Shown here in pieces: positions 35,471 through 63,685 of a stretch of DNA of 64,000 nucleotides; position 1 is the first letter of the stretch, and each line of letters opens with the position of its first letter. The notes under the pieces are model-generated. The model was not told where the DNA came from, made no database searches, and was given only the letters and a program-made list of their open reading frames with translations. The stretch is from positions 151,858 through 215,857 of the forward strand of contig CAZXND010000001.1 of the NCBI GenBank assembly GCA_964641355.1, given 5' to 3'. This stretch comes from an uncultured Gammaproteobacteria bacterium (GTDB taxonomy: Bacteria; Patescibacteriota; Microgenomatia; Levybacterales; GWA1-39-11). The translations under genes were made by a program, and so were the position numbers.

Positions 35471-35548
35471 CAGAGTTCTGTTATAATTTAAGCCGCAATT
35501 CATTGGAGGAGTCGGATAAGCAAATAGCTTGTGCGGCTCTCAAACAAG

Positions 35549-35637
35549 GGAGGAGTCGCATAGTTGGTCCATTGCGAGGGTTTGCTAAACCCTTGAGTCT
35601 AAATGACTCGCGCAGGTTCGAATCCTGTCTCCTCCGC
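35549..35637 (+). tRNA. tRNA-Ser (anticodon GCU), type II with long variable arm
   Basis: Acceptor GGAGGAG/CTCCTCC, anticodon loop tTGCTAa and a long variable arm. ORF 35434..35688 is a spurious overlap. Confidence 0.85.
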
Positions 35638-35729
35638 CCACAATCCCTTCTAGAAATTATTACTTTTTTGTTACCGATTTGTGGCTAAATTTAATTGCTA
35701 TATAAAGAGTCCTATGATAAACTTTTACT

Positions 35730-36038
35730 ATGGAAAACGAAGGTGCAAAAGCTACCGGTAGTTCTGTGTCGCTTAGTATTCATGATGAAGTAGTAAATTC
35801 AGGTGTTAATCTTATCCATCCAGATCGGGAATTAATCTCTTCTATAAATGGGACTCCAATGGAGACCAGAGGAGAAATAATCGAACATCCAACCCAACCC
35901 TCTAATATCATCGACTTCACCAATGCCAAAGAGGCCATGAACACTCAAGAAGGAGAAACGAAGCGATCAACAAATAGATGGAAGCGATTATGGTTTTTTA
36001 GAGAAAAAGAACAAAAGGAGAAAAAAGATGCAGCTTGA
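35730..36038 (+). CDS. Hypothetical small soluble protein, translationally coupled to the following ATPase
   Basis: 102 aa with no motifs; it overlaps the downstream gene by 11 nt. Confidence 0.35.
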   Translation: MENEGAKATGSSVSLSIHDEVVNSGVNLIHPDRELISSINGTPMETRGEIIEHPTQPSNIIDFTNAKEAMNTQEGETKRSTNRWKRLWFFREKEQKEKKDAA

Positions 36039-38457: not shown

Positions 38458-38513
38458 GTAGACTTAACCTGCTCATTTAGATATAATTACAAATCTCAAA
38501 ACTAGAGTACCAA

Positions 38514-38536
38514 CTCAGTGGCGGAGCGCTACTCTT
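38514..38536 (+). other. Partial duplicate (5' half: D-arm to anticodon loop) of the downstream tRNA gene
   Basis: ctcagtggcGgagcgctactctt is 22/23 identical to nt 38582..38604 of the tRNA 36 nt downstream. The identity breaks exactly inside the anticodon loop. Confidence 0.5.
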
Positions 38537-38571
38537 TGATGATTTAATGTTTGGGAACAAATGAGAAATGC

Positions 38572-38643
38572 GCGCCTGTAGCTCAGTGGCAGAGCGCTAC
38601 TCTTATAAAGTAGATGTCCTTGGTTCGAATCCAAGCAGGCGCA
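38572..38643 (+). tRNA. tRNA with anticodon UAU (tRNA-Ile, AUA-decoding) - unusual anticodon
   Basis: Cloverleaf: acceptor GCGCCTG/CAGGCGC, D-arm GCTC-AGTGGCA-GAGC, anticodon stem CTACT/AGTAG with loop CTTATAA, T-arm CTTGG-TTCGAAT-CCAAG, discriminator A. 72 nt. CCA is not encoded. Confidence 0.75.
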
Positions 38644-38693
38644 CAACCCAAAAAATTGTCCGTCGAATCCAAGCAGATTATATAGAAACTGCC

Positions 38694-50278: not shown

Positions 50279-50854
50279 TTATTTTGAGTGAGGGAAGAGA
50301 TTATTTACAGATTTTTCGAACTTTTTCATCCGCATAATTTCGTGTGTCAACGCCTTCTTATTTTTTCCACTCAACTTTTTTTCATAAGGAGAAATAATTT
50401 CTTGATGTTTTCTTATAGATTGCTTCATTTGCTCAAGAAGGGGCTGGATATCTTCATTCATTTTTTTCGCCTTCTCGATATTAACGATGGCATCATCAAA
50501 ATAATTATTACTCTTAGAAAGAGTGTCTATTGCTATATCGTTTTTATTTTTGTCAAAAAGGAAAGTCGCAGCATTTGCTCTTTTATCTGATGCAAGAAGA
50601 TCAAAACTAGCTTTTTTAAGAGAATCAGATATTAAAGTACTAACGATTTTATCTCGTAAAACTTTTAAATTATACAAAGGGTTTCCAGGAAGAAGTCCTG
50701 GATATGGCATGTTGTAATTGATCTTTTCAACTTTAGGAGTATCTGTTGATATACTCTCTTCTTCCATCATTAATTCCTGAGCATAAGTTTTTGTAGAAAG
50801 AGAAAGGATGGCAACTAATATTAATACAAGACATACAACTTTAAAAGATTTCAT
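50279..50854 (-). CDS. Hypothetical secreted alpha-helical protein
   Basis: ATG at 50854 gives MKSFKVVCLVLILVAILSLSTKTYAQE, a signal peptide. 191 aa with no motifs. The track's TTG start at 50872 was rejected. Confidence 0.35.
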   Translation of the reverse strand: MKSFKVVCLVLILVAILSLSTKTYAQELMMEEESISTDTPKVEKINYNMPYPGLLPGNPLYNLKVLRDKIVSTLISDSLKKASFDLLASDKRANAATFLFDKNKNDIAIDTLSKSNNYFDDAIVNIEKAKKMNEDIQPLLEQMKQSIRKHQEIISPYEKKLSGKNKKALTHEIMRMKKFEKSVNNLFPHSK

Positions 50855-50938
50855 GAGGAAATGATAGATCAAATAGCTTCTATTGTCAACTCAGGTAGAA
50901 TTGACTTTTTAAATGATTTTAAGTCATACTAAATAAAG

Positions 50939-52558
50939 ATGAACCTTCTATCCAAGCTTTCTTTATCTCGTATAACTACATATTATATAGTAGCTCTTCT
51001 TTTCTTTGTATTTTTCTCTCTTCTTCCATCTCAAGCTCTTGCACAATCCCCACTCAACATAAATACACAAGAGGGTGTAGAGAATAACATCCACACATAC
51101 TCACAAATTGCAATGATTGAAGTTTTAAGAAGTGCATCATGCTTCTTAACAGGCAAAGACCCTCTTGCGGTTAAAGCACAATGTATAGGAGTTAATCCCA
51201 TCTCAGGCAAATATGGGTACATTAATCAAGAAAACAATGGAATGATCGGAGTTATGGGTAATTTAATGTCTATGACATTCAACATTCCAATCAGCACCGG
51301 CCAATATTCATCTTATCTTGCAAATGATTTTGGTATAGCAAAAAAGACTTATGCTCAGGGACCTGGATTTCCTGGTCTTGCACCTGTTCTTAACCTTTGG
51401 AAAACTTTTAGAAATATTTCATACTTACTGTTTGTACTCATATTTATCGCTCTTGGTCTTGGAATAATGTTTCGAGTCAAAGTTGATCCGCGTACAGTTA
51501 TGACCGTACAAAATCAAATTCCCAAAATTATTATCGCGTTGGTTCTCGTAAGTCTTTCGTATGCGATTGTTGGATTTCTGATAGATCTAATGTTTGGGTT
51601 CATTTATCTTGAGTTTAATATGATCGGATCATCAACCCCAGATATTCAAACCAATATTTTTTCTTTTGTTAATAATACTATTGACCTTGAAGGAGGAGGA
51701 ATTTTTGGAACAATGATGCTTTCCTCTCTATCAGTTGGGAAGATTATAGCTTCTTCCTTTAATAATCTTTTTGCAGAACTAGGAAGCTCTCTTCTGGGAA
51801 CTGCTACAAAAGCAATTGGAGTGCTTTTAATACCTGTGACCTTTGGTGCGTCAGGAATTCCAGCAGGTTGTGACATCGCAGGAAAAATAGGAATTGGACC
51901 AGTAAGTATAAGAGATATTCCATTTATTTCTTCTGGTTGTGATGCAGTTGATAATCTTCCTCAAATAATAATCGGGGCGATAACAACAATTCTGGCATTT
52001 TTGGTTATAGCGATTGCAGTACTCTGGGCATTATTTAGAACATGGTTTATGCTTATCAGAGCTTTTGTCTATATTCTTATAGATACTCTTTTTGCTCCTC
52101 TTTGGATATCTGTTGGAATTTTGCCAGGTGCATCAGGTCTTGGATTTGAAAAATGGATAAGGCATTTGATGGCAAACATTTCTGTTTTTCCTGTAGTCGT
52201 TGGAATGTACTTAATAGCCAATTCACTAATCCACTCATTTGGCGGCGCCAATAGTTTTACACCTCCTCTAGTTGGGAACCCAAGTCAATCAGATGCAATA
52301 GGAGCGCTTATTGCTCTTGGATTTATTCTTTCCACTCCACAAGCTATATCAACAACAAGAAACGCCTTTAAAGCACCCGACTTTAAGCTCGTCGCACTCA
52401 AAACAGCGCTTGGAGTTGGGGTTGGAGGACCAAGAAGAGTTGTAAGCGGAGGACTAGGATACGTATACAGTCCGAAGCACGATCCAAAATCAGGAACCGT
52501 TATTTATCCTGCTGGTCCTATTGGAAAAGGGTTGAGAGCGCTTGGGATTATTCGCTAG
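50939..52558 (+). CDS. Polytopic membrane protein with N-terminal secreted domain; candidate VirB6/TrbL-like channel subunit
   Basis: Signal peptide, extracytoplasmic domain of about 130 aa, then at least 6 TM helices. Assigned by architecture and genomic context (same locus as the PrgI-like and VirB4-like genes), not by motif. Confidence 0.3.
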   Translation: MNLLSKLSLSRITTYYIVALLFFVFFSLLPSQALAQSPLNINTQEGVENNIHTYSQIAMIEVLRSASCFLTGKDPLAVKAQCIGVNPISGKYGYINQENNGMIGVMGNLMSMTFNIPISTGQYSSYLANDFGIAKKTYAQGPGFPGLAPVLNLWKTFRNISYLLFVLIFIALGLGIMFRVKVDPRTVMTVQNQIPKIIIALVLVSLSYAIVGFLIDLMFGFIYLEFNMIGSSTPDIQTNIFSFVNNTIDLEGGGIFGTMMLSSLSVGKIIASSFNNLFAELGSSLLGTATKAIGVLLIPVTFGASGIPAGCDIAGKIGIGPVSIRDIPFISSGCDAVDNLPQIIIGAITTILAFLVIAIAVLWALFRTWFMLIRAFVYILIDTLFAPLWISVGILPGASGLGFEKWIRHLMANISVFPVVVGMYLIANSLIHSFGGANSFTPPLVGNPSQSDAIGALIALGFILSTPQAISTTRNAFKAPDFKLVALKTALGVGVGGPRRVVSGGLGYVYSPKHDPKSGTVIYPAGPIGKGLRALGIIR

Positions 52559-55500
52559 CTTGAAGTAAGGTTCTTAAGATCGAGTACCACTGTTGTTTCA
52601 ATCATCGCAATAATTATTAACGCAAGAATACCTCTTGCGGAATAGAGCTTAAGTCGTCCATTTTTATCCACTTCAAGAATTGATTCTAAATCCCTAAATT
52701 GCTTCTCAGCATTATGCGTTCTCTCTTCAATCAACTTTCTCTGCTCCTCATCAGATAGAAGTTTTTCTTCATCGCTTAATTCTCCGACGCTATTTGCAAG
52801 CTTAATTCTAATATGGTCTAACTTTTCTCGCAAATCATCTCTTGTTAGAGATGCAGCCTGAGGACCGTAAATTTCCTCGAGTCTTGAAGTTGCTCTTCTA
52901 AAAGGTTTGTCTATTCCAAAAACATCCCAGAAAAATCCTTTTTTCGCCACTTCAAAAAGAGTACCAACCGTGTGTCTAACTGATTTTGCCCTACCCCCTT
53001 GTCCCAGATATTGACTGGCTGATTCTGCAAATTCCATCGCAGATTTGACACGCTCATCAATACCTTCTGATTTAAGAAAAGCAGTAAGCGCTGAGCCGGC
53101 CTTCATTGCGTTTGATATATCATTCATGTTTCTAACCAAAGCATCTGCGCCCCTATCTTTAGACCAAATACTTGAAAGCATTTTCAAGCCAGACCCTTCT
53201 GGACCTTCTTCAAGATCTTTTATAGAAATGTCATCTACCCTAAGAGTTCTTGTATAGATGTCATCAAATTCTTTTCCCCATGAAAGTTTTTTAATTTTTT
53301 CCGAAGTAACGAAACCCTGCATAGAAGAAAACATTTTTTCAAGTTTTTCTGCCTCTTCTTCGCTTCTTAAAAATTTCACCAAAGCACTCCTTTGCATGGG
53401 AGTTAGATGTGCAAAGTCAATTTGCTCTGGTACTCCTTCATTAAATTTTCCATTTAAAGCATCTTCTCTCATCTTGCTTATTATTGCTCCATACTCTTGT
53501 TTGAAACCATCAAATTTATTCTGTGCCTTAAATGCTTTCACTTTCCTTTTTAGCGAGTCTAACTCTTCCCTTCCAAGGGAGAGCGCTTTGCTTGATAGCT
53601 TTTCTAAATTTTCATCATCAAAATAGGATTTAAAAAATTCGAATTCTTTTTTGTCTGTTCCGTCGTATTTTATTTCTACAAAGGGCGAGGACGGATCAAG
53701 AAGAAGCTCTTGAAAATCAGAATCACTAGGAGCTTTATCTCTAAAAAGTCTTATCACTTCTTCGGTTCTAAATTTTCTAATTTTTTTCCAAATGTCTTCT
53801 AGCTCACTGAGCTTTGATTCTTTGTCTTTTGGATTTCTTGTAGCTCCTTTCAACTGCATAAAAAGCCCAAAATTATTAGCCTCTTTTACTGTCTCTTTGA
53901 ATCTACTTACATCTGACATCCTACCACTCAACTCAAATTCCTTTAATCTTTCCTCGATAAGATCATATGCCTCGCCTTCGCTTATTATTCCGAGCTTAGT
54001 CGCCACTTTATATTCAAAAAACTCTCTGTGCCTCTCTCGAATACCAAGAATTCTCCAACCAGAAGAATAAAAATCAGCTACTGCAAATAGGTCCTTAAAA
54101 AGTTTAGAACCTGCTCTTTCAGCTTCTAAATCATTCTCGTATTTAATTCCCAACTCACTAGCTCTTTCATAAGCCATTCTAAGCTTCATCTCTCTTAGAA
54201 ACTCTCTATCCTCAGCATTAAGAATGTTAAATTTTCCAGTGAGGAATTCTTCATAGTTAAAGATATTGAAAGCAGCACCTGGATCAGAATAGATGGCTAG
54301 AAGGCCCGGTGCATGTTCACCACGAGAAGCAATAACTATTTCTCTTTGCGAATCAACCAAAATGTCATAGGCCGTTCTAATAGACCTCTCTACTTTTTTT
54401 CTAGCACGGTCTAAATCTAATAAATTCCCTTTCTCATCTTTAAACTCATAAACACCAGCTTCAACCATCTTCATTTGTTCTTCGATAAGATCTTCATTGA
54501 CTCTTGTAACAGTCTCAGAATATAAATGCTGCTCGAATCCTCCTTGTCTTAATCTCTCATCTTCAAGCTTGTCGGCTATTCTAAAATACATGGCTTGAGT
54601 AAAACCGTCTTCAAAACTAAGTGCCTTAAACATCCCATGAGATTGAAGTCTTGAGGCTGCACCTTGGATTTGCTCAATTGATCTTGATTCAACGTTAACC
54701 CGCATAAATAACGAGTTTATAAGAATATTGTATCGCTCAGAAAATTCGGTAAGAACTTTTGTTCCATCAGCTCTATTTCCAATAGTAATTTCAAGATATC
54801 TAGTCGCTTCTCCAAAAGCTCTTTGGAGAGTCTCAAAAACAGGAGACTCTAATTCATTTCCTCTTCTTGCTGTATCATAAAATAGATCAAACTTCTCACT
54901 TAACCATCCCTGAGGATCAATGTCCAACTGTTCCATATCCTCAGACTGAATTGTAAAAAAGTTTCTTCTTTCTCTATCCTGTGAATGACTCAAGCGTTTT
55001 TCTATTGCAGACTCTTGATCAGCTATGGACTTTAGAACCTGCGCCTTCTCAACTCCATTAACACCCTCCATTTCATCAACTCTTTTAAAAGCCGCCCTTA
55101 GTTCTTCCAACTGTCTCCCTACATTACCCTGAAAAATATCAAAATTACGATTAACCCTTCCTATTTCTGCAATAAGCGATAAGTCTTTTATACCCTTATT
55201 ACCAATCGCATCTGCCCCACCCTCAACAGGTTTAACACCCATCTCTCCTAAAATTCTAGCGACCTGTCTTTCCTCTGAGGATATTACCTGGCCCCTACCT
55301 TCTCTTTCTTCAAAATGTTTCTGCCAATCGTTTGTCATGCTACTTATTTGAGGATTAGTTAAAAGTTCGCTGCCTCGACCTTGATAGGGTTTGCTTCTAA
55401 TCTCAGCTGCCCCTTTTCTAACATCAAGATTTATTTTTCCATCAAAAGAAGCTGGACTTCCTTCTTGTTTCGGTTCCATTCTACCTTCCAGTGTATAAGG

Positions 55501-55563
55501 GTTCACTCTTTGTGTCAACTCAGATTGATTTAAAAAGATTATTCTTTCTTTCATAGATCGCAT
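52555..55563 (-). CDS. Giant (1002 aa) alpha-helical/coiled-coil protein with single C-terminal TM helix (tail-anchored)
   Basis: No enzymatic motifs found. It is charged and Glu/Lys/Arg-rich. The only hydrophobic segment is C-terminal (GILALIIIAMIETTVVL). Its 5' end overlaps the VirB6-like gene by 4 nt on the opposite strand. Confidence 0.4.
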   Translation of the reverse strand: MRSMKERIIFLNQSELTQRVNPYTLEGRMEPKQEGSPASFDGKINLDVRKGAAEIRSKPYQGRGSELLTNPQISSMTNDWQKHFEEREGRGQVISSEERQVARILGEMGVKPVEGGADAIGNKGIKDLSLIAEIGRVNRNFDIFQGNVGRQLEELRAAFKRVDEMEGVNGVEKAQVLKSIADQESAIEKRLSHSQDRERRNFFTIQSEDMEQLDIDPQGWLSEKFDLFYDTARRGNELESPVFETLQRAFGEATRYLEITIGNRADGTKVLTEFSERYNILINSLFMRVNVESRSIEQIQGAASRLQSHGMFKALSFEDGFTQAMYFRIADKLEDERLRQGGFEQHLYSETVTRVNEDLIEEQMKMVEAGVYEFKDEKGNLLDLDRARKKVERSIRTAYDILVDSQREIVIASRGEHAPGLLAIYSDPGAAFNIFNYEEFLTGKFNILNAEDREFLREMKLRMAYERASELGIKYENDLEAERAGSKLFKDLFAVADFYSSGWRILGIRERHREFFEYKVATKLGIISEGEAYDLIEERLKEFELSGRMSDVSRFKETVKEANNFGLFMQLKGATRNPKDKESKLSELEDIWKKIRKFRTEEVIRLFRDKAPSDSDFQELLLDPSSPFVEIKYDGTDKKEFEFFKSYFDDENLEKLSSKALSLGREELDSLKRKVKAFKAQNKFDGFKQEYGAIISKMREDALNGKFNEGVPEQIDFAHLTPMQRSALVKFLRSEEEAEKLEKMFSSMQGFVTSEKIKKLSWGKEFDDIYTRTLRVDDISIKDLEEGPEGSGLKMLSSIWSKDRGADALVRNMNDISNAMKAGSALTAFLKSEGIDERVKSAMEFAESASQYLGQGGRAKSVRHTVGTLFEVAKKGFFWDVFGIDKPFRRATSRLEEIYGPQAASLTRDDLREKLDHIRIKLANSVGELSDEEKLLSDEEQRKLIEERTHNAEKQFRDLESILEVDKNGRLKLYSARGILALIIIAMIETTVVLDLKNLTSS

Positions 55564-55600
55564 TTTACAGACTCAAAACCCTCTTTACTTGATAATCTCC

Positions 55601-55620
55601 TCACAATTTCATCACAATTT
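55601..55620. promoter_or_regulatory. Tandem direct repeats TCACAATTT-n2-TCACAATTT in divergent promoter region
   Basis: Two perfect 9-bp copies with an 11-bp period. They overlap the -35 region of a TATAAT (55643..55648) that lies only 6 nt from the ATG of the NTPase-wHTH gene, suggesting a leaderless transcript. Confidence 0.35.
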
Positions 55621-55654: not shown

Positions 55655-56980
55655 ATGAAACAAAACGAAGCCTCTCATTTTGAATCCCTCTATCCTGCCG
55701 AAACCCGAGAGAAAGAAATTGGCGAAATCATTGGGTTTGTAAAAAAGGGCTTATCTTCACAACTAATTGGTCTTCCAGGAAGTGGGAAAAGCAATGTTTT
55801 AAATCTTTTAACATACAACAGAAAAGTGCGAACTCTTCATTTAGGAAACGCGCAAAATAAATACCATTTCGTATACATGGATTTTTCCGAAATTAAAGGT
55901 CGAAATAATTTTGAAGTTATTAAATTTATTCTAATTTCACTCGCCTATTCACTTTCTGAAAGAAGAATGAATAAAGAATATGGAGAGATAAATAAATATT
56001 TAAAAGAAGCAATTTCATTTAATGATGAGCTCATTCTTTTCCAAGCGCTTAAAAAAAGCATTGATTTTCTAGCAAACGAATTAGACCTTACCGTAATCCT
56101 TCTACTGGACAGGTTTGATCAATATTTTTACGATGTATCAGATTCCTTTTTTCTTAATTTAAAAATTCTAAGAAATAGGGCGAAGTATAAATTTTCTACC
56201 GTTTTCTCACTTTCACGCTCAATACAAGAACTCCTAGAAGAAGACGTTTATTCTGAATTTTCTGAATTTTTTTCTCAAAACAAGGTCTTTCTTAGTCTTT
56301 TTGACAAAATAGGCATAGCATTTAGACTTTCATATCTTGATAAAACCACTAATAAAAAAACAAGTGAAATGACAAAAAAAGAACTTCTAAGAATAACATC
56401 CGGACATGGAAAATTGACTCGAGTAGGATACGAACTTTTACTTTCTGAAAAAGAAATATCCGACATTGAAAACTTTTTAGAACAAAAAGACATTATTAAA
56501 AAAGTCTGTTATGAAATTTGGGATACTCTTACCCCTGCCGAACAAAATATTTTAATAAAAATTTCAAAAAAAGAAGATATAAAAATCCCAAATTATTTTG
56601 AAGAAATAGAACTTATAAAAAACGGGGAAATATATATTCCAATTTTTGAAAAATTTCTAAGCAAAGTAAAATTCAAAAACGAATTAATAGTTTATGATGA
56701 AGGAAAAAATGAGATACTTAAAGGTCAAGATAATTTAACAGATGTTTTAACTCCGCTAGAATTTAGAGTCTTAAGATTTTTAATTATAAATAAAGATAGA
56801 ACTTGCGAAAAAGAGGAAATTATTAACTCTGTATGGAAAGACTCAAAAACACAAGAAGGAGTTAGCGACCAAGCCTTAGATCAAATCGCTTATAGACTTA
56901 GAAAAAAGATTGAGAATGACCCCAACAATCCAAATTACATTTTAACTATCAAGGGTCGTGGTTTTAAATTTAATCCTTAA
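55655..56980 (+). CDS. P-loop NTPase fused to C-terminal OmpR/PhoB-type winged-helix DNA-binding domain (putative locus regulator)
   Basis: N-terminal Walker A LIGLPGSGKSNVLNLL in an AAA/STAND-like domain of about 250 aa. The C-terminal 100 aa match the trans_reg_C pattern (LTPLEFRVLRFLIINKDRTCEKEEIINSVW...SDQALDQIAYRLRKKIE...ILTIKGRGFKF). Confidence 0.55.
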   Translation: MKQNEASHFESLYPAETREKEIGEIIGFVKKGLSSQLIGLPGSGKSNVLNLLTYNRKVRTLHLGNAQNKYHFVYMDFSEIKGRNNFEVIKFILISLAYSLSERRMNKEYGEINKYLKEAISFNDELILFQALKKSIDFLANELDLTVILLLDRFDQYFYDVSDSFFLNLKILRNRAKYKFSTVFSLSRSIQELLEEDVYSEFSEFFSQNKVFLSLFDKIGIAFRLSYLDKTTNKKTSEMTKKELLRITSGHGKLTRVGYELLLSEKEISDIENFLEQKDIIKKVCYEIWDTLTPAEQNILIKISKKEDIKIPNYFEEIELIKNGEIYIPIFEKFLSKVKFKNELIVYDEGKNEILKGQDNLTDVLTPLEFRVLRFLIINKDRTCEKEEIINSVWKDSKTQEGVSDQALDQIAYRLRKKIENDPNNPNYILTIKGRGFKFNP

Positions 56981-56982
56981 GC

Positions 56983-58353
56983 TTGTATTTTAAATTTAGA
57001 TTCGGTTATGATTTAAGAGTGAGAAAATTCCTTCTTCTAATAATAATTCTAATTACTTTTTTTTCTATATCAAAGATTTCCTTTGCACAAGAACAAAAAA
57101 CCCCATCTTCTACTCCTGCTGCTTCTGATCCAAACGGTTACGGAGCAATTATTACTAGCCCATCGAATCCGGACGACATAGTTGAAGGGCACAAGATTAT
57201 AACTGTAAAATTCACAATCCCATCATCAGAAATTGGAAATGAATTTTTACTTTGTCAGGAAGCAGATTGCGGTGAAACTCACGACAAATTAAATAATGGA
57301 ATCGCAGACTCAAAACCCACTACGGCAAGTTTTGATATTAAAGTATGTGGAGCAGAAGCTGGAGTTTTACAAACCAATAATTGCGAAAACAGTGGCTCTG
57401 ATCTTTACGGTGGAATGATGTACTATCTTACATTGGTAAAACATGAAAGAGAATCAACTGGGCAAGTAACAACCTCGGAATCATTCACTCCTGTTGCGAG
57501 TGTCAGTTTTTATGTTAAAAGAATCTATCCAAATGTTGATTTAACTTCTGAAAACGAAAACAAACCGCGTATTGGATCGAAGCCTATCTTACATTTCAGC
57601 CAAAACGAATTTCCAGTACCAGAAGATGCCCTTACTGATACTTATACGTATAAAGTTCAAGTTTTTAAAATTGGAGCAAGTGATGAAGAGTATGACTATC
57701 AAGAAGAAGTAGAACTAAATGAAAATAATAAGTCTGATGACCTCAAAATAACTACAAACGGGGAGACCGGAGGTGGCCTCCCGGAAGGAAATTACATTGT
57801 AAAAATTTTCCGTAAATCCTCCCCCTTCACTGATTCTGCAAATACAGTAGTCGGGGGAGATGGTTTTCTAATGTACACAATCGATTTTAGCGTCACGAAT
57901 AATGGGGGAAAGATAGGAGTAAAGAAGAAAGACCCAGAAGGGAAAGATAATAGACTTTTTGCTGCAGGAGATCAGCTCAGTCCGACCCCTCCTCCACTTC
58001 CCTGCTTGGAAGGGTGGAAAGACGATCAAAAAACTATAATATCTCAGGATCCTAAAGAAATAAAATATTGTACGAAAGTTGGTACAGCGCTGGGAAGTCT
58101 TGAGGTAATGCCTCTTGGATTAATATCAAATCTTCTAAGATGGTTCCTTGGTATTGCCGGATCCGCTTCGCTTATTATCTTTCTTTATGCAGGATATGTA
58201 TTAATGACATCAGCTGGAAACAAGGAAAAGGTTCAGGGGGCACGTGAAACAATAACCTCAGCCATTGTTGGACTGATATTTATCATTTTTTCTGTAGCAA
58301 TTCTTGAATTTATCGGCGTTGATATCTTGCAAATTCCAGGACTTGGAAAATAG
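56983..58353 (+). CDS. Secreted Cys-containing 330-aa domain fused via Pro-rich linker to a C-terminal VirB2/TrbC-like two-TM pilin module (candidate tip adhesin/minor pilin)
   Basis: Signal peptide, a soluble domain with 6 Cys, a SPTPPPLP linker, then ...LISNLLRWFLGIAGSASLIIFLYAGYVLMTSAGNKEKVQGARETITSAIVGLIFIIF..., which is homologous to the three downstream small proteins. Confidence 0.45.
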   Translation: MYFKFRFGYDLRVRKFLLLIIILITFFSISKISFAQEQKTPSSTPAASDPNGYGAIITSPSNPDDIVEGHKIITVKFTIPSSEIGNEFLLCQEADCGETHDKLNNGIADSKPTTASFDIKVCGAEAGVLQTNNCENSGSDLYGGMMYYLTLVKHERESTGQVTTSESFTPVASVSFYVKRIYPNVDLTSENENKPRIGSKPILHFSQNEFPVPEDALTDTYTYKVQVFKIGASDEEYDYQEEVELNENNKSDDLKITTNGETGGGLPEGNYIVKIFRKSSPFTDSANTVVGGDGFLMYTIDFSVTNNGGKIGVKKKDPEGKDNRLFAAGDQLSPTPPPLPCLEGWKDDQKTIISQDPKEIKYCTKVGTALGSLEVMPLGLISNLLRWFLGIAGSASLIIFLYAGYVLMTSAGNKEKVQGARETITSAIVGLIFIIFSVAILEFIGVDILQIPGLGK

Positions 58354-58356: not shown

Positions 58357-58701
58357 ATGAAAGATTTATTAGCTCTGACAGTACAAAACCCAAGCGGAGT
58401 AATCGAAAAATTGAGTCCTCCTCCCGAAATAATCAGTGGGCCGGGCACAACAAATACAATAGTGAGATTTGGTCTTAATCTTCTTGTTGTTACTGGAATT
58501 ACCGCATCTCTTATCTATATGCTTCTTGCCGGAATTAAATGGATAACTTCTGGCGGAGACAAACAGAAGATCGAAGAGGCAAGGAAGGGAATTACATATT
58601 CAATAGTTGGAATTATTATTATTTCTTTGTCTTTTGTAATCATACATTTAATAGGAGAAATATTAGGCGTACAGCTTCTCTCAAGGTTTGGTGTTAAATA
58701 A
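58357..58701 (+). CDS. Two-TM pilin-like protein (VirB2/TrbC-like topology), paralog 1
   Basis: 114 aa: ...NTIVRFGLNLLVVTGITASLIYMLLAGIKWITSGGDKQKIEEARKGITYSIVGIIIISLSF... Hydrophobic helix, conserved charged loop, hydrophobic helix. Confidence 0.45.
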   Translation: MKDLLALTVQNPSGVIEKLSPPPEIISGPGTTNTIVRFGLNLLVVTGITASLIYMLLAGIKWITSGGDKQKIEEARKGITYSIVGIIIISLSFVIIHLIGEILGVQLLSRFGVK

Positions 58702-58713
58702 AAAGTTGCACTA

Positions 58714-58742
58714 TTGACAAACTTTTTAGAACATGCTCTAAT
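58714..58742 (+). promoter_or_regulatory. Sigma-70-like promoter (TTGACA-17-TCTAAT) upstream of the signal-peptide-bearing pilin paralog
   Basis: A perfect -35 hexamer with 17-bp spacing to an A/T-rich -10, about 10 nt upstream of the ATG at 58752. Confidence 0.3.
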
Positions 58743-58751
58743 AAATTAGAT

Positions 58752-59189
58752 ATGAAAAAATCACTTAACTTAAAAAAGGCAATAATTCCCTTATCGGCTT
58801 TTGCTTTACTTGCAGTTGCGACTCCAGCATTTGCTGCCACCCAACAACAAGTGATTGACTTAAGTCCTGTTAATGGAGTTGTTCCTAGTAGTGCTGTTCA
58901 AGTAAGTGACGTTATAAGATTTATTATCAATTTACTTGTAGTCATCGCTGTAATTGCTTCTCTTGTATACCTTATTTACGGAGGACTTCGATGGGTAATT
59001 TCAGGTGGGGACAAAGAGAAAGTTGAAGCAGCAAGAAAAACAGTAGTTGCTGCAATTATCGGCTTGGTCGTTGTTCTTCTCTCATGGGTTATAATCACAG
59101 TTGTGATGCAAATCGTAACTGGAAAGGCGCTTAATAATTTCACTCTTCCTACACTACAATCTCCAAACACACAAACTAAACCTCAATAA
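58752..59189 (+). CDS. Two-TM pilin-like protein with cleavable signal peptide (candidate major pilin), paralog 2
   Basis: 145 aa. Signal peptide MKKSLNLKKAIIPLSAFALLAVATPAFA|A, then ...SDVIRFIINLLVVIAVIASLVYLIYGGLRWVISGGDKEKVEAARKTVVAAIIGLVVVLLSW... About 60% identical to paralog 1 across the core. Confidence 0.5.
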   Translation: MKKSLNLKKAIIPLSAFALLAVATPAFAATQQQVIDLSPVNGVVPSSAVQVSDVIRFIINLLVVIAVIASLVYLIYGGLRWVISGGDKEKVEAARKTVVAAIIGLVVVLLSWVIITVVMQIVTGKALNNFTLPTLQSPNTQTKPQ

Positions 59190-59228
59190 CCTCCTTTTAC
59201 TTTCTCAAAATTTTTATATAATAAAATA

Positions 59229-59558
59229 ATGAATAGTCTCAATACTAGCAACTGGAACTCGTGCATCGACAGTGCTTATGGTGTTCCACAACTTACATGC
59301 CTTTGGGTAATTTTGAGTAATATCCTTAACGCCTTCCTTACTTTATCAGGACTTGTAGCATTATTCTTAATAATCTATTCTGGGATAAAATTTATAATGT
59401 CGCGCGGAGATAAAGAAAAAATCGAAGGAGCAAGAAAAACTTTTATTTTTGCTATTATCGGGCTCGTTTTTATTCTATTATCTTTTTATATTTTAGTATT
59501 TATAGGACAACTAACAGGAATTAAAATCGATAAGTTAATAACCCCGCCACAAAGATAA
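59229..59558 (+). CDS. Two-TM pilin-like protein, paralog 3
   Basis: 109 aa: ...LSNILNAFLTLSGLVALFLIIYSGIKFIMSRGDKEKIEGARKTFIFAIIGLVFILLSF..., the same conserved core. Confidence 0.45.
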   Translation: MNSLNTSNWNSCIDSAYGVPQLTCLWVILSNILNAFLTLSGLVALFLIIYSGIKFIMSRGDKEKIEGARKTFIFAIIGLVFILLSFYILVFIGQLTGIKIDKLITPPQR

Positions 59559-59560: not shown

Positions 59561-61339
59561 TTAAGAAGTAATTCCTCCTATAATTGCCGCTGCTTGTCCA
59601 ACTCCCCCAAGAGCTGCAAAAGCCAGGAGGAAGATTAGAGCTTTACCTTTTTTTGTACTTCCAAAGGCTTTTAATCTTTTTAGTAGCTCGACTTTTTCTT
59701 TTGTTGTTTCTTTTGAAACTCCCATTTCTTTATCAATCATTTCTCCTTTTTTAAGAAGCTCGTTAAACAGTTCTTCTCCGAATTCAGGATTGTTTACTAA
59801 TTTAGTAGCGTCTTCATTGCTTATTCCCACAATCATTCCCCGAGAAAGAATTTCAGTCTTAACACTTTCGCGAAGATTACTCGCAAATTCTGGATCATTA
59901 GCAATTCTCTCTTTGATTTCGACTGCTCTTACCTCTTTTCTAGCCTCAAACTGCATATCCGTCTCTCCTTCATTCTTAACCAAACTATCCTTCGCAAGTC
60001 TTACAATCATAGCGTCATTACCATTCTCTATTAAGTATTTTGTGTACTCTTGAACCTTTTTCCTATCAAACTCAACCTTAATTTGTTTTCCTACTACTTT
60101 TTTAACTTCTGTTGTTTGGATTTGTTTTAAAATGTCTTTTTTGTCGTTATCTTTTTCAGCAGCAATTTCTCTTGTGGTAATCTGATTAAGAGCTTCTATT
60201 CTCGCTTGTGCATCTTGAGCAAGTTGCATTTCTGCTTTAACCGTAATAATACCCTTTGCAGTCTCAATCATTTTCACATCTTGCGCTGCCTTTTCTTTCT
60301 CAGTAGTGTTAAAAGCATCTTCTGCTTTTGTCTCCTGCTCTTTTAGTGCTTCCAGTTCTTCACTTAATCTTTCTTCTTCCTCTTCAAGAGTTTTGATTTT
60401 TCCAGGTAGGCCCTCTTTTTCTGATTTTAACTGAAGATATCTTTGACGTTTCTCACGAGCTTGTCCGAAGGATAGATATTCCTTTTCTTCATTAGAAAGA
60501 CTGCTTGGATCAATTGCATTTTTTGCTTTTGCCGCAGCGATTGACGTCAATATCTGGTCAGGTCTCGCTTTTGCACCATACATTTCAAAAAAAGCAACTT
60601 CTATCGGCCTGTCATAAATTTCAAAATCCTTCACTCCTGAACTTTCAAGGTTAGAAAGCTCTCCTGCAATAGTAAGGTTTCCACTTGCATCGGCAAGTTG
60701 TCCATTAAATTCTTCCTGCCTACTTTTCGCCTGAGCCAAATCTTTAGAACTATTTTCTCTTTCCCCTTCTTTCCTTTCACGATCTTTCTTGGCCTTATCA
60801 AATTCTTTTCTAGTCATAACAAGCTTTGCCTCAATCTCACTCGGTCCAAAACCTTGCTCAAGAACTTTTTTTATCTCTTCCTGAAGATTCTTATTGCCCA
60901 AAACGAATTTTGCGACCTCTCTTGTCTCATCCTCACTCAATCCACCAAACACCTCTTCGTTAGCTTGAAACCTAGCGGTAACCTGATCTAGTATTTTATC
61001 TTGATTTGTTCTATCGATATTAGCAAACCCTTTTTCAGCAATTTCTTGGGCTAACTGTAAATTCTCTTTTGCCTCTTGGTATTCTTGTACGCGATCCCCC
61101 GGAGGACTTCCCAGTCTATCTTCGAATCTCTCTTGAGCGTTGAAATCTAAGTTATTTTCTTGTTGAGCAAATTTTTTTAGTATATCTTCTGCATTTTGAT
61201 TTTTCGCTAATTCTTCCCTAATTCTTTGTCCCATATCACGATTTGTCTGCTGCTCAGGAGTAAGATGTGCCCCTGGTGCTACCGGCTTTCTTTCAGTCAT
61301 TGATCTAACCGCAATTTCTGCTTTATTGATGTCCGCCAT
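59561..61339 (-). CDS. 592-aa highly charged coiled-coil protein with single C-terminal TM helix (tail-anchored)
   Basis: Glu/Lys-rich with no enzymatic motifs. The C-terminal segment ALIFLLAFAALGGVGQAAAIIGGITS is the only hydrophobic region. Confidence 0.4.
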   Translation of the reverse strand: MADINKAEIAVRSMTERKPVAPGAHLTPEQQTNRDMGQRIREELAKNQNAEDILKKFAQQENNLDFNAQERFEDRLGSPPGDRVQEYQEAKENLQLAQEIAEKGFANIDRTNQDKILDQVTARFQANEEVFGGLSEDETREVAKFVLGNKNLQEEIKKVLEQGFGPSEIEAKLVMTRKEFDKAKKDRERKEGERENSSKDLAQAKSRQEEFNGQLADASGNLTIAGELSNLESSGVKDFEIYDRPIEVAFFEMYGAKARPDQILTSIAAAKAKNAIDPSSLSNEEKEYLSFGQAREKRQRYLQLKSEKEGLPGKIKTLEEEEERLSEELEALKEQETKAEDAFNTTEKEKAAQDVKMIETAKGIITVKAEMQLAQDAQARIEALNQITTREIAAEKDNDKKDILKQIQTTEVKKVVGKQIKVEFDRKKVQEYTKYLIENGNDAMIVRLAKDSLVKNEGETDMQFEARKEVRAVEIKERIANDPEFASNLRESVKTEILSRGMIVGISNEDATKLVNNPEFGEELFNELLKKGEMIDKEMGVSKETTKEKVELLKRLKAFGSTKKGKALIFLLAFAALGGVGQAAAIIGGITS

Positions 61340-61679
61340 TGCTTATTTTTATCTCCTCTCTCACTATATTTAGCGCCTCATCTATTTTTCCTTCTTTTGC
61401 GAGTTCGCTTGCGGCCTCAGCCACTTCCTCATCTTTTTTTTCCTGAACCTCTCCACTCTCCACAACCAAAAGATAAGAAAAGACAGACCATTTTGATGAT
61501 AATACGCGAAGAAAATTGATAAGCTCCTCGTGTGTATTTACTTTTTCCATCTCCTTAACTATGAATGAAGAAAGAGAGGGGACTTCTTTTGATGGGATCA
61601 TATCCTGCTCAAGAGCATCTGCTATCAACTCCACTATTTTTTTTGCAACTTCCCTTTTATGCTCTGGCGTTAAATCCAT
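61323..61679 (-). CDS. Hypothetical small acidic soluble protein, translationally coupled to the 592-aa gene
   Basis: 118 aa; it overlaps the downstream gene start by 17 nt. Confidence 0.3.
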   Translation of the reverse strand: MDLTPEHKREVAKKIVELIADALEQDMIPSKEVPSLSSFIVKEMEKVNTHEELINFLRVLSSKWSVFSYLLVVESGEVQEKKDEEVAEAASELAKEGKIDEALNIVREEIKISNGGHQ

Positions 61680-61884
61680 ACTATTTTATTATTGGATAAT
61701 TAAATTTTAATGTCAAACAAACTCTGAAATTAAAATCCTATAAAGTTGAGACTCAAGTAATATTTCCAAAACGATTTATACCCATAGTTTTCACGATTTG
61801 TGCCTAGCTTGATATAGTTAATAGCCTTGCAATGAAAATTTTCACGTTATACGCTTAGTTTACGGCTATATACCAATAACTCTG

Positions 61885-63051
61885 GTGTATTTCTCGCCCA
61901 GAAAGGCTCGTAATATGGAAATGGAGAATCATCCGATTCCCCTTGATGTTACAGGATTTAAATTTAGACTGATAGGAAGCATGACTGTTAAGCAGTTTTT
62001 GTATCTTTTGGCTTCTGGAATACTTGTATCGCTTACACTTCTTCTTCCCTGGCCACTTTTAATAAGAGTTCCAATGATTACTTTTTTCTCTTTGGTTGGA
62101 TTTAGTCTGGCTTTTATTCCAATCGATGGAAGACCCATGGATAAAATGATTGCTAGCTTTGCAAAACACGTTCTGTTTACAGAAGACTTGTGGGTTTATC
62201 GAAAAAAAGGAGCAAATATTGCTTCTTATGAAATCTTCCAAGAACCCAAAGTTGAAACAAAACCCGCTCCACAAGAACCATCCCAACCAAGTATACGCAC
62301 TTTTGCTATTAAAAAACCTCACGTAAAACTCGAGCAAGAAGAACTCGATTTTTTGAAAAGAGTACGAGGGTTTTTCTCAGAATCAGCCGTTCAACAACAA
62401 CCAGTTATAAATTCTACAACTTCTTCTCCCCATCCAACGCAAACAGAAGGAGAAGAAGCCTTGAAAATCCGCACTGAGATTCAACAAATTAAAAATCGTG
62501 TGGAAGTTGAAGGTCCAACAGAAGAATTAAAAAAAAGACTTACAGAACTCGAAGCAAGACTTAGCAATATTCTCGCTCAAAATATTGCCCTTCAAAATAA
62601 AGTATTTGAATTTCAAAGACAAATTCCAGACAAGGCTTACCAGGTGGAAGGCAAACCTACTATAACACCTAACGCAAGACTAGTAGACAGCGCAAGTCAA
62701 GTTAAGGCTGGCTTTCCAATGCTTCCTGATATCCCAAACGTGATACTTGGAATAGTAAAAGATCCCAGAGGTAGGATTTTACCTGGAATTATAGTCGAAG
62801 TGGTAGATCAAAATAATATTCCAGTGCGTGCTTTTAAAACAAATAAATTAGGACAATTTGCTGCCGCAACACCTCTTCCAAATGGAAAATATAAAATAAT
62901 TTTTGAAGATCCTCAAAAAAACAACGAGTTTGAAACAATCGAGATAGACCTTAATGGACAAATTTTTCAACCGCTTGAGGTTATTTCAATTGATCAAAGA
63001 GAGAGACTTAGACAAGAGCTCTTTGGTAAGACAAATTCGTTACAAAACTAA
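61885..63051 (+). CDS. PrgI/VirB3-like T4SS membrane protein fused to coiled-coil and C-terminal beta-sandwich (CarboxypepD_reg-like) domain
   Basis: The N-terminal 110 aa (PLDVTGFKFRLIGSMTVKQFLYLLASGILVSLTLLLPWPLL...FSLAFIPIDGRPMDKMIASF) match the PrgI-family pattern (..tfrQllYLl.. hairpin of two TM helices). The VirB4-like gene follows immediately. The C-terminus has VILGIVKDPRGRILPGIIVEVVDQNNIPV...GKYKIIFEDP. The start may be at M11/M13. Confidence 0.5.
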   Translation: MYFSPRKARNMEMENHPIPLDVTGFKFRLIGSMTVKQFLYLLASGILVSLTLLLPWPLLIRVPMITFFSLVGFSLAFIPIDGRPMDKMIASFAKHVLFTEDLWVYRKKGANIASYEIFQEPKVETKPAPQEPSQPSIRTFAIKKPHVKLEQEELDFLKRVRGFFSESAVQQQPVINSTTSSPHPTQTEGEEALKIRTEIQQIKNRVEVEGPTEELKKRLTELEARLSNILAQNIALQNKVFEFQRQIPDKAYQVEGKPTITPNARLVDSASQVKAGFPMLPDIPNVILGIVKDPRGRILPGIIVEVVDQNNIPVRAFKTNKLGQFAAATPLPNGKYKIIFEDPQKNNEFETIEIDLNGQIFQPLEVISIDQRERLRQELFGKTNSLQN

Positions 63052-63052
63052 T

Positions 63053-63685
63053 ATGTCAAAGAGGAAAATTTCATCAACAACACAGGACTTTACAGAACTA
63101 ATAGACATAATCGATGGAATCGCTTTTTTCAAAAATAGGAATTCAGCTCTTGTTGTTGAAGTTTCATCAGTTAATTTTTCACTGCTCTCCCCCGATGAGC
63201 AGAACTCAAGGATCTATGGCTACATGAGTCTTTTAAATTCTCTTTCTTTTCCAATCCAAGTCCTAGTAGTAAGTCAGAAAATAAATATGTCTTCCTATGT
63301 AAAAACATTAGATCAAAGAATCACAAGTTCACAAAACTCAAGAATTTCAAAACACTTAGTCGAATATAAAAACTTTATAAAAGAGCTCACAAAAACGGAA
63401 GGACTTCTTGACAAAACGATCTATGTAGTTATTCCACTCACCCCTCTTGAGCTTGGAATATCAAACGTTGCAAAAGAGATAAAAAAACAAGCCGAGTTTG
63501 TAGAAACAACTAGAAAAACACTTAATAGTCGGGCAGCAAGCGTTATTAACCAACTACAAAGACTAGGTCTTACAGCAAAAGTACTCAACTCAGACGATTT
63601 AGCAAGACTTTACCATAATATTTATAACCAAGAATCGATAAATATAGAGTATGAGTCACAGGATTTAAAGAATGTGATTTTATAA
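63053..63685 (+). pseudogene. VirB4/TraE-like T4SS ATPase, N-terminal 210-aa segment (ORF terminated by TAA; continues in another frame)
   Basis: STTQDFTELIDIIDGIAFFKNRNSALVVEVSSVNFSLLSPDEQNSRIYGYMSLLNSLSFPIQVLVVSQ follows the N-terminal-domain pattern of Gram-positive VirB4 homologues (..DG.i.....g.f...y.l..iNF.l...dEqe.i...y...LNs.....Q.....). The start at 63053 was chosen because its first codon abuts the stop of the PrgI-like gene. Confidence 0.5.

What the first reader, a model, noticed from the sequence alone, without database searches (positions are those of the whole stretch)
52555..55563. 1002-aa tail-anchored all-alpha protein divergently transcribed from the locus regulator
A very large, charged, coiled-coil-rich protein has its only hydrophobic segment at the extreme C-terminus. 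No nucleotide-binding, relaxase (HUH), peptidase or glycosidase motif was found. Bacterial tail-anchored proteins of this size are uncommon. Its position between the VirB6-like gene and the regulator suggests a structural or scaffold role, or a secreted substrate.
Basis: seen in the sequence. Interest (0 to 1): 0.55.

Follow-up and report, generated by a model that had tools for sequence, protein, structure and literature searches.

The report
Unknown helical protein beside secretion channel
A roughly 1,000-residue all-helical protein with one short greasy tail is always encoded tail-to-tail with the channel-like membrane protein of the type IV secretion gene cluster in Levybacteria-type ultra-small bacteria; it matches no known family or solved fold, so it is probably an unrecognised part, or possibly a cargo, of that machine.

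Summary
The ORF at 52555-55563 (-) is real. The true start is probably M4, at 55554. The protein is charged, Cys-free and all-alpha, and its only hydrophobic segment lies at the extreme C-terminus. It is not coiled-coil-rich. AlphaFold (pLDDT 86.5, pTM 0.80) gives about 44 short packed helices.

The tail is conserved but only marginally hydrophobic. It has 11-14 uncharged residues, then a conserved Glu.

No Pfam, NCBIfam, PHROG, PADLOC, PDB-sequence or Foldseek (PDB, viral) match exists. An exhaustive profile search found about 130 cluster representatives. All those placed taxonomically are Levybacteria or other Patescibacteria.

In all 26 related loci examined, the gene converges on a 450-740 aa polytopic membrane protein. 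The gap was 28 nt or less in 24 of the 25 I measured. That partner family has one member matching TrbL/VirB6. The pair always sits beside the regulator, pilin array, PrgI and VirB4 locus. A conserved promoter box lies upstream.

Best reading (about 0.45): a lineage-specific, cytoplasm-facing, membrane-tethered subunit that docks on the VirB6-like protein. Main rival (about 0.2): a translocated tail-anchored substrate. Function is inferred from context only.

The parts
52555..55563 (-). Target ORF ('BIG1002'), 1002 codons as the longest ORF; the probable true start is M4 at 55554 (999 aa)
   Evidence: Homologues were found.
55354..55563 (-). N-terminal ~70 residues, predicted disordered and poorly conserved
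   Evidence: pLDDT 33-37 over aa 1-70. Conservation is 0.23.
54064..54963 (-). Conserved core 1 (aa ~201-500). Motifs: GxELxSP, VRTAYD, SQR, VIVARG and PDFFSSGWRI (invariant W503, G485, R337)
   Evidence: The FSSGWRI and SQR motifs are kept even in the distant subfamily.
52864..53313 (-). Conserved core 2 (aa ~751-900). Motifs: FxDIYTRT, VDD (invariant D778), GGDALVR..ND (invariant R811), RYTxGT and G900. This is the part shared with the most distant relatives.
52576..52632 (-). C-terminal hydrophobic tail (aa 978-996, GILALIIIAMIETTVVLDL), with basic residues before it, an embedded Glu989 and a short polar end
55587..55619 (-). Conserved upstream box with 11-bp-phased repeats: AATTGTGAtgAAATTGTGAggAGATTATCAAG. 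The opposite strand reads as a sigma-70-like promoter (TTGATA-18-CACAAT) pointing toward the regulator.
   Evidence: The box is present upstream of the orthologue in 13 loci and scores as unique within the window.
55562..55567 (-). Putative -10 element TAAAAT, 20 nt after the box and 7 nt before the ATG of M4. This implies a leaderless mRNA.
   Evidence: 10 of the 13 related loci, plus the window on manual reading, show box, 20-21 nt, TAnACT, then 6-8 nt to the ATG.
50939..52558 (+). Convergent partner gene ('TM539'): signal-like N-terminus, ~120-aa Cys-containing outer domain and about 7 TM helices. It is the VirB6/TrbL-like candidate.
   Evidence: It is adjacent to the target in all 26 loci examined.
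55655..56980 (+). Divergent regulator: N-terminal P-loop (GLPGSGKS) plus a C-terminal OmpR-type winged helix (Trans_reg_C)
   Evidence: Orthologues at 42-55% identity sit in the same place.

Best explanation
BIG1002 is a lineage-specific subunit of the Levybacteria-type (Microgenomatia, Patescibacteria) type IV secretion system.

Proposed mechanism:
- It has no signal peptide, so its ~900-residue all-helical body stays in the cytoplasm.
- Its C-terminal helix consists of a basic flank, 11-14 hydrophobic residues, a conserved Glu and a short polar end. This helix tethers it at the membrane.
- The helix is too weakly hydrophobic to be a robust stand-alone anchor. It most likely docks against the membrane domain of the co-conserved VirB6/TrbL-like polytopic protein encoded tail-to-tail with it.
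- Together the two would behave like a split 'extended VirB6': a channel subunit plus a large cytoplasmic platform beneath it that organises or gates the cytoplasmic face (VirB4, the distantly encoded coupling ATPase, or substrates).
- It is expressed from its own leaderless promoter. The upstream 11-bp-phased repeats are plausibly bound by the adjacent winged-helix regulator.

Shown: the ORF, the fold class, the conservation of the tail, the strict gene pairing and locus membership, and the conserved promoter geometry.

Inferred: topology, the physical interaction with the VirB6-like protein, the platform role, and control by the regulator.
For: 1. Gene pairing. In all 26 related loci examined the gene is convergent with a TM539 homologue. 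The gap was 28 nt or less, or the stops overlapped, in 24 of the 25 I measured; L025 has about 315 nt and a small ORF between them. This holds for searches started from either partner and for distant subfamily members.
2. Locus membership. The pair always sits beside T4SS_pilin genes. In long contigs the order is VirB4 / TrsD-like / PrgI / pilins / pilin fusion / regulator.
3. Partner identity. The TM539 family is polytopic, and one member matches Pfam TrbL/VirB6 (E = 2.4e-5). The published survey found VirB6 homologues 'scarce' in Microgenomatia and suggested extreme divergence (PMC12102498).
4. Conservation. The protein is conserved over its full length, with invariant R337, G485, W503, R699, D778, R811 and G900. 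The key motifs persist in relatives of about 20% identity.
5. Tail. In 98 of 104 full-length members the most hydrophobic window lies within 40 aa of the C-terminus. R or K precedes the run in 57 of 74 core members and E or D follows it in 60 of 74. Net charge is +1.8 before the run and -0.2 after it. No other segment comes near membrane-insertion hydrophobicity (best dG at least +5.1).
6. Candidate contact. R367 of TM539 is a 100%-conserved basic residue in a hydrophobic stretch and could pair with the Glu.
7. Structure. A confident compact all-alpha model (pLDDT 86.5, pTM 0.80) fits a folded structural protein.
8. Promoter. A conserved box and -10 geometry lie upstream. Weaker copies of the box lie upstream of another operon of the same locus in L018 and L019.
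9. Precedent. Tail-anchored, all-alpha, cytoplasm-facing secretion subunits exist, for example TssL and DotU (PMC3426401). Extended VirB6 proteins carry large hydrophilic domains of unknown role (PMC12857230).
Against: - There is no experimental or structural evidence for any interaction, and no complex prediction could be run.
- The tail is a marginal TM segment (median summed dG +2.85 kcal/mol), so membrane tethering itself is unproven.
- This is the fastest-evolving conserved protein of the locus: 27-35% identity, against 36-50% for TM539 and 55-64% for the VirB4 N-terminus. That pattern would also fit a host-interacting or secreted protein.
- The many invariant charged residues could mark an active site rather than an interface.
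- A membrane-anchored coupling ATPase is encoded 14 kb away (36028-38457), so no obvious 'missing' cytoplasmic function demands this protein.
- The conserved box also reads as an ordinary promoter for the divergent operon.
Confidence: 0.45

Rival explanations
1. It is a translocated substrate of the T4SS, either an effector or a translocon/tip protein. It would be kept soluble in the producer by its only moderately hydrophobic C-terminal helix and inserted as a tail-anchored protein into the membrane of the bacterial host cell on which the epibiont lives.
For: - The tail has marginal hydrophobicity. This matches the rule reviewed for secreted membrane effectors: moderately hydrophobic segments escape inner-membrane targeting and go directly through the T4SS (PMC12981334).
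- T4SS secretion signals are typically C-terminal (same review).
- It is the fastest-evolving conserved gene of the locus, and its N-terminal 200 aa are variable and disordered.
- The Patescibacteria T4SS lacks a relaxase and is thought to move proteins or serve another role (PMC10633639; PMC12102498).
Against: - Effectors are rarely single-copy, full-length conserved and locked in one syntenic position, tail-to-tail with a channel gene, across relatives down to about 20% identity.
- A 1,000-residue, tightly packed helical protein (pTM 0.80) would need complete unfolding for export.
- No recognised T4SS signal (Arg-rich or E-block) was looked for or found. The conserved Glu at a fixed depth suggests a specific intramembrane partner.
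Confidence: 0.2
2. It is an all-alpha enzyme or regulator acting at the cytoplasmic membrane face, for example on lipids, envelope precursors or the pilin pool. It would be genetically linked to the T4SS locus without being a structural part of the channel.
For: - Two separately conserved cores carry many invariant or near-invariant Arg, Asp, Glu, Gln and Trp residues: RTAYD, SQR, FSSGWR, VDD and GGDALVR..ND.
- The halves are not duplicates of each other (hhalign E = 0.14), so this is not a simple repeat solenoid.
Against: - No catalytic motif or family was detected by Pfam, NCBIfam, PDB sequence search or Foldseek.
- Conserved charged residues are equally expected at protein-protein interfaces and as buried salt bridges in helical proteins.
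Confidence: 0.15
3. The gene pair (BIG1002 plus TM539) is an independent two-gene membrane module unrelated to secretion, for example a transporter with a cytoplasmic partner. It would merely be a conserved neighbour of the T4SS locus in this lineage.
For: - Only 1 of 36 TM539 relatives hits TrbL/VirB6.
- The pair is transcribed separately from the pilin/VirB4 genes.
- One metagenome-assembled genome carries a second copy of the pair on another contig without visible T4SS genes (L016). That contig starts inside the gene.
- Conserved gene order in small, streamlined genomes can be historical.
Against: - The pair stays next to pilin genes even where the rest of the locus is rearranged (L002/L003; L025).
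- A distant member lies 2.5 kb from a coupling-protein homologue (L030).
- The promoter box recurs, more weakly, upstream of another operon inside the T4SS locus (L018, L019).
Confidence: 0.12

Closest known systems
Extended VirB6 proteins (e.g. F-plasmid TraG, ICEBs1 ConG, pCW3 TcpH, Rickettsia RvhB6)
   Same: A polytopic VirB6-type membrane domain is combined with a large hydrophilic domain of unknown role (PMC12857230). Here a VirB6/TrbL-like polytopic protein is invariably paired with a ~900-residue hydrophilic body that carries one hydrophobic helix.
   Different: - The two parts are separate polypeptides from convergent genes, so this is not a split fusion.
- No sequence or fold similarity was detected.
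- The domain details of the named examples come from my own memory and were not tested here.
TssL (T6SS) / DotU-IcmH (Dot/Icm T4BSS) tail-anchored subunits
   Same: - They are cytoplasm-facing, all-alpha proteins held by a single TM helix at the extreme C-terminus with only a few residues beyond it.
- They belong to a secretion machine and work with a polytopic partner (TssM/IcmF).
- This topology is rare in bacteria: about 11 proteins in E. coli K-12 (PMC3426401).
   Different: - TssL is about 200 aa (its TM is 183-208) with a fully hydrophobic anchor.
- BIG1002 is about 1,000 aa, with a short run interrupted by Glu.
- There is no Pfam DotU/TssL match and no fold match.
- The host system differs: monoderm-type T4SS versus diderm T6SS/T4BSS.
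Transmembrane-domain effectors of T4SSs (Legionella, Coxiella, Rickettsia)
   Same: They have a hydrophobic segment of only moderate strength, which may be C-terminal, in an otherwise soluble protein encoded by a T4SS-bearing organism that lives on another cell (PMC12981334).
   Different: - Those effectors are diverse, dispersed and lineage-variable, and they target eukaryotic membranes.
- BIG1002 is single-copy and positionally fixed, and any target would be a bacterial membrane.
Alpha-solenoid scaffolds (importin/exportin, HEAT/TPR proteins)
   Same: They give the best, but non-significant, Foldseek hits. All are large proteins built from many short packed helices.
   Different: - E is at least 0.14 and TM-score at most 0.13 for hits covering more than 250 aligned columns; only short designed-repeat fragments score higher on the target-normalised value.
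- No HEAT, TPR or ARM repeats are found by Pfam.
- No internal duplication was detected.

Membership tests
Tail-anchored (C-tail-anchored) membrane proteins | Single hydrophobic segment within the last ~30-65 residues; no other TM segment and no signal peptide | tested here: met
   The only hydrophobic window is aa 978-996 of 1002. In 98 of 104 homologues the best window lies within 40 aa of the C-terminus, and nowhere else is dG below +5.1.
Tail-anchored (C-tail-anchored) membrane proteins | The segment is long and hydrophobic enough to span the bilayer | tested here: inconclusive
   The uncharged run is only 11-14 aa and is followed by E or D in 60 of 74 core members. The basic-to-basic span is 17-19 aa in the three sequences I measured. 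The median summed dG is +2.85 kcal/mol and only 9 of 98 fall below 0. The scale was recalled from memory and no dedicated predictor was available.
Tail-anchored (C-tail-anchored) membrane proteins | Experimentally membrane-integrated with the N-terminal domain in the cytoplasm | not testable with these tools
   Only the charge bias (+1.8 before the run, -0.2 after it) supports an N-in orientation.
   The longest helix is 39 aa and there are about 44 helices in a compact model. A crude heptad screen covers 5.7%. There are no Pfam, NCBIfam or PDB sequence hits and no significant Foldseek hit.
TssL / DotU (IcmH) family | Sequence match to the DotU/TssL cytoplasmic domain | tested here: not met
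   There is no Pfam hit even at E up to 10, no PDB profile hit and no such chain among the 50 best Foldseek PDB hits shown.
Known T4SS enzymatic components (VirB4/VirD4/VirB11 ATPases, relaxases, VirB1 hydrolases) | Walker A/B motifs, HUH motif, or lytic transglycosylase/peptidase domains | tested here: not met
   The motif scan was negative. Pfam, NCBIfam, PHROG and PADLOC were negative. Long family members also lack domains.
Component of the Patescibacteria (MPF-FATA-like) T4SS locus | Encoded within or adjacent to the virB4 / prgI / pilin-array cluster across genomes | tested here: met
   This holds in every contig long enough to show it. In the window, PrgI is at 61885-63051 and the VirB4 N-terminus starts near 63690.
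Component of the Patescibacteria (MPF-FATA-like) T4SS locus | Required for T4SS assembly or function, or physically part of the complex | not testable with these tools
   No cultivated Levybacteria or genetic data exist for this lineage. Tn-seq data exist only for a Saccharibacterium (PMC10633639), and I did not find this family reported there.
VirB6/TrbL family (for the partner gene TM539, not the target) | Polytopic membrane protein matching Pfam PF04610 | tested here: inconclusive
   It has 7-8 hydrophobic helices. Only 1 of 36 family members matches PF04610 (E = 2.4e-5), and the window protein itself has no hit.

The most novel reading that the evidence does not exclude
The protein founds a structurally new family, found only in Levybacteria-type Patescibacteria among the representatives I could place. 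It could be the missing cytoplasmic-face subunit that, through a Glu-bearing tail helix, forms a two-polypeptide 'extended VirB6' with a highly diverged channel protein. Alternatively it could be the first candidate protein delivered by the essential Patescibacteria T4SS into the membrane of the bacterial host. Either reading would give a concrete handle on what this relaxase-less, pilus-bearing monoderm T4SS actually does.
Probability: 0.25. Interest if true: 0.8.

Novelty: new variant of a known kind. Interest (0 to 1): 0.55.

Why it matters
The T4SS of Patescibacteria is essential for epibiotic growth in the one species tested, lacks a relaxase, and has an unknown job (PMC10633639, PMC12102498, PMC12857230). 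The published survey of its components could not find VirB6 or VirB8 equivalents in Microgenomatia.

This gene pair supplies two things. One is a credible diverged VirB6. The other is a previously undescribed 1,000-residue partner with no detectable relatives among solved structures.

If the protein is a machine subunit, it changes the parts list of monoderm T4SSs. If it is a cargo, it would be the first candidate effector for an inter-bacterial parasitic T4SS in the candidate phyla radiation.

The conserved promoter box next to a P-loop/winged-helix regulator also offers a testable regulatory circuit.

Tried and rejected
- **Family searches, all negative.** I scanned the protein, six long relatives and eight distant relatives against Pfam. 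The window protein alone was also scanned against NCBIfam, PHROGs and PADLOC.
- **PDB sequence searches.** Neither the single sequence nor a 68-sequence profile gave anything below E = 0.24.
- **Plasmid search.** tblastn against 72,556 plasmids found no match for the protein or its partner.
- **First AlphaFold run.** The run on 6 sequences was too poor to use (pLDDT 53.6).
- **Second word-indexed search.** Using the 68-sequence alignment it returned only 3 proteins and added nothing.
- **Metagenome scan.** The scan for the distant subfamily gave only 2 loci.
- **Internal duplication.** Rejected; hhalign of the N half against the C half gave E = 0.14.
- **'Replaces the missing coupling protein'.** Dropped after I found a membrane-anchored VirD4-like gene at 36028-38457.
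- **'Pure regulator-binding site' for the promoter box.** Softened after the opposite strand turned out to read as a sigma-70-like promoter.
Full report
**1. The observation**

The minus-strand ORF 52555-55563 exists and encodes 1002 residues. At the window's base composition, 1002 codons without a stop has a probability of about 6e-32. The identical protein is present in two independent sequencing runs.

The protein is 33.7% D/E/K/R, has a net charge of -22 and contains no cysteine. It has no Walker A, HUH, HExxH or GxSxG motif.

Its only hydrophobic stretch is aa 978-996, GILALIIIAMIETTVVLDL. The Kyte-Doolittle 19-residue score is 2.25, and the next best in the protein is 0.86.

Homologues begin with MKE or MNE, aligned to M4. 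A conserved -10 element overlaps the first ATG. The true start is therefore probably 55554.

**2. Setting**

The window is a low-GC Patescibacteria genome; its relatives are Candidatus Levybacteria. The target lies in a type IV secretion locus with this gene order:

| Coordinates | Strand | Feature |
|---|---|---|
| 50279-50872 | - | DUF5667 protein |
| 50939-52558 | + | 539-aa polytopic membrane protein with about 8 hydrophobic helices ('TM539') |
| 52555-55563 | - | the target |
| 55655-56980 | + | 441-aa P-loop plus Trans_reg_C regulator |
| 56983-58353 | + | 456-aa pilin fusion |
| 58357-59558 | + | three T4SS_pilin genes |
| 59561-61679 | - | a 592-aa plus 118-aa gene pair |
| 61885-63051 | + | PrgI/VirB3-like protein |
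| 62954-63685 | + | 243-aa TrsD/TraC-like protein |
| from ~63690 | + | VirB4 N-terminus, cut by the window end |

A membrane-anchored VirD4-like ATPase lies 14 kb away at 36028-38457, flanked by an M23 peptidase and a SpoIID-like protein.

This matches the published description of the Patescibacteria T4SS. That system is MPF-FATA-like, carries pilin arrays, lacks a relaxase and encodes its coupling protein away from virB4. VirB6 is 'scarce' and VirB8 undetected in Microgenomatia (PMC12102498).

**3. The family**

A word-indexed search found only five relatives. An exhaustive profile search of 1.84 billion cluster representatives found 130, of which 87 scored below 1e-30. Nearly all are 830-1300 aa.

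No member has a Pfam domain, including those with 400-700-residue N-terminal extensions. The genome scan recovered 18 loci. All are Levybacteria or Patescibacteria MAGs, although several carry a 'Gammaproteobacteria' title.

Conservation is concentrated in two cores, aa ~201-500 and ~751-900:
- The invariant residues are R337, G485, W503, R699, D778, R811 and G900.
- The motifs are VRTAYD, SQR, PDFFSSGWRI, YRPEEIIRLFRER, VDD and GGDALVR..ND.
- The FSSGWRI, SQR, YRP and DDA motifs persist in a subfamily only about 20% identical.
- The two halves are not duplicates of each other.

**4. Structure**

With 68 sequences, AlphaFold gave a confident model (pLDDT 86.5, pTM 0.80). Residues 1-70 are disordered. 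Residues 71-1001 form about 44 helices of 4-39 residues and there are no strands.

This is a compact multi-helix body, not a coiled coil. A crude heptad screen covers 5.7% of the protein.

**5. The tail**

In 98 of 104 full-length members the most hydrophobic window lies within 40 residues of the C-terminus, and nothing elsewhere approaches membrane-insertion hydrophobicity. The tail is short, however.
- The uncharged run is 11 or 14 residues.
- R or K precedes it in 57 of 74 core members.
- E or D follows it in 60 of 74 core members. In the distant subfamily Q is the most common residue there (14 of 30).
- About 15 more residues follow, often ending in K.
- The summed Hessa-scale dG has a median of +2.85 kcal/mol (scale recalled from memory).

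The feature is real and conserved, but it is a marginal stand-alone TM helix. The fixed acidic residue suggests a specific partner within or at the membrane.

**6. Synteny**

In all 26 related loci the gene is convergent with a TM539 homologue. I measured the gap in 25 of them. In 24 it was 28 nt or less, or the stops overlapped; L025 has about 315 nt and a small ORF between the genes. The pairing holds in three situations:
- in the close family;
- in distant members;
- when the search starts from TM539.

The pair stays beside pilin genes even where the rest of the locus is rearranged.

One TM539 relative matches Pfam TrbL/VirB6 at E = 2.4e-5, which is 1 of 36 scanned. That gives weak transitive support for the 'VirB6-like' label.

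BIG1002 is the fastest-evolving conserved gene of the locus. Its identity to the window protein is 27-35%, against 36-50% for TM539 and 55-64% for the VirB4 N-terminus.

**7. Promoter**

Upstream of the gene lies a conserved 33-bp box. In the window it is AATTGTGAtgAAATTGTGAggAGATTATCAAG at 55587-55619 (-), and the family consensus is ATTGTAAGG-N-TTGTAAGG-N-TATCAAG. It is found in 13 orthologous loci and scores as unique in the window.

The box is followed by 20-21 nt, then TAnACT, then 6-8 nt to the ATG. Ten of the 13 related loci show this geometry, and the window shows it on manual reading. It implies a leaderless mRNA.

The 11-bp phasing suits an OmpR-type winged helix such as the adjacent regulator. 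The reverse strand, however, also reads TTGATA-18-TACAAT, a sigma-70-like promoter pointing toward the regulator/pilin operon. I therefore treat the region as a bidirectional control region and regard regulator binding as unproven.

**8. Interpretation**

The best-supported reading is a lineage-specific, cytoplasm-facing, membrane-tethered subunit that docks through its tail on the VirB6-like protein. The pair would be a two-polypeptide analogue of 'extended VirB6' proteins (PMC12857230). It is topologically reminiscent of the tail-anchored TssL/DotU subunits (PMC3426401). My confidence is about 0.45.

The main rival is a translocated tail-anchored substrate. The moderate hydrophobicity of the tail (PMC12981334) and the fast evolution fit that reading. 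The strict synteny and the large compact fold argue against it. My confidence is about 0.2.

An enzymatic role at the membrane (about 0.15) and a secretion-unrelated two-gene module (about 0.12) remain possible.

**9. Novelty**

I found no description of this family in the papers I read on Patescibacteria T4SSs. It belongs to no known family by any test run here. The surrounding system is a known kind, so I rate it a new variant of a known kind, with moderate-to-good interest.

Noticed in passing
window 59561-61339 (-) and 61323-61679 (-): A second charged protein with a C-terminal hydrophobic tail (592 aa, tail IFLLAFAALGGVGQAAAII) follows a 118-aa all-alpha protein. The pair is inserted between the pilin array and prgI. 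Homologous 118-aa plus 600-700-aa pairs occur in L012, L017-L020 and L022, and L006 has a shorter 329-aa partner. The hydrophobic tail is present only in some (window, L006, L012, L022); the others end in Pro-rich tails.
   Followed up: partly
window 33940-40403: A second T4SS-related cluster lies 14 kb from the main locus. It holds a Peptidase_M23 protein (33940-35286 -), a VirD4-like coupling ATPase of 809 aa with one N-terminal TM helix and Walker A GKTGTGKS (36028-38457 +), and a SpoIID-domain protein (38568-40403 +). The genome therefore does encode a coupling protein and candidate wall hydrolases, away from virB4.
   Followed up: partly
window 55587-55619 (both strands): The conserved box upstream of the target reads on the opposite strand as a sigma-70-like promoter (TTGATA-18-CACAAT; consensus TACAAT) aimed at the regulator/pilin operon. 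The 91-bp intergenic region therefore looks like a back-to-back bidirectional promoter with 11-bp-phased repeats. A degenerate copy (ATTGCAAGG...TATATCAAGC) lies at about 61807-61833 (-), upstream of the 118-aa gene, but scores below my PWM threshold.
   Followed up: partly
window 52555-52558: The stop codons of the target and the convergent VirB6-like gene overlap by 4 nt, and no terminator-like site lies between them. Of the 25 related loci where I measured the gap, 24 have 28 nt or less, so the two transcripts must overlap as antisense at their 3' ends.
   Followed up: partly
window 55655-56980 (+): The 'locus regulator' is not a classical response regulator. It has an N-terminal P-loop (GLPGSGKS) region of about 340 aa and a C-terminal OmpR-type winged helix, with no receiver domain. 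In some relatives (L001, L030) an AAA_14/DUF4143 ATPase occupies a comparable position.
   Followed up: no
L006 9478-10006; L007, L008, L013, L017 and L026 equivalents: In several relatives a small 23S_rRNA_IVP (four-helix-bundle) gene is inserted between the regulator and the target. It is flanked by CTAG-rich or AAAGTCAAAA-rich inverted repeats and looks like a small mobile cassette. The promoter box stays next to the target gene.
   Followed up: no
window 38572-38644: ARAGORN calls a tRNA-Ile (anticodon TAT) that overlaps the first codons of the 611-aa SpoIID-like ORF (38568-40403). Either the ORF starts further downstream or the tRNA call is spurious.
   Followed up: no
L005, L007, L008, L017, L018, L021, L022 (record titles): Seven genome records titled 'uncultured Gammaproteobacteria bacterium' carry this Levybacteria-type T4SS locus with 27-35% identical orthologues in the same gene order. 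The titles look like mislabelling of Patescibacteria MAGs.
   Followed up: no
L014 and L016 (same MAG, GCA_030651475.1): One MAG carries two copies of the BIG1002/TM539 pair on different contigs. The second copy shows no visible T4SS genes downstream, and its contig starts inside the gene. This could be a true paralogue or strain mixing in the bin.
   Followed up: no
window 61885-63051 (+) and 56983-58353 (+): The PrgI/VirB3-like protein is unusually long (388 aa) and has a C-terminal CarboxypepD_reg-like domain. The first 'pilin' is a 456-aa fusion of a signal/TM segment, a ~350-aa outer domain and a C-terminal T4SS_pilin module. That module also matches the Mycoplasma ICE pilin-like family NF045849.
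   Followed up: no
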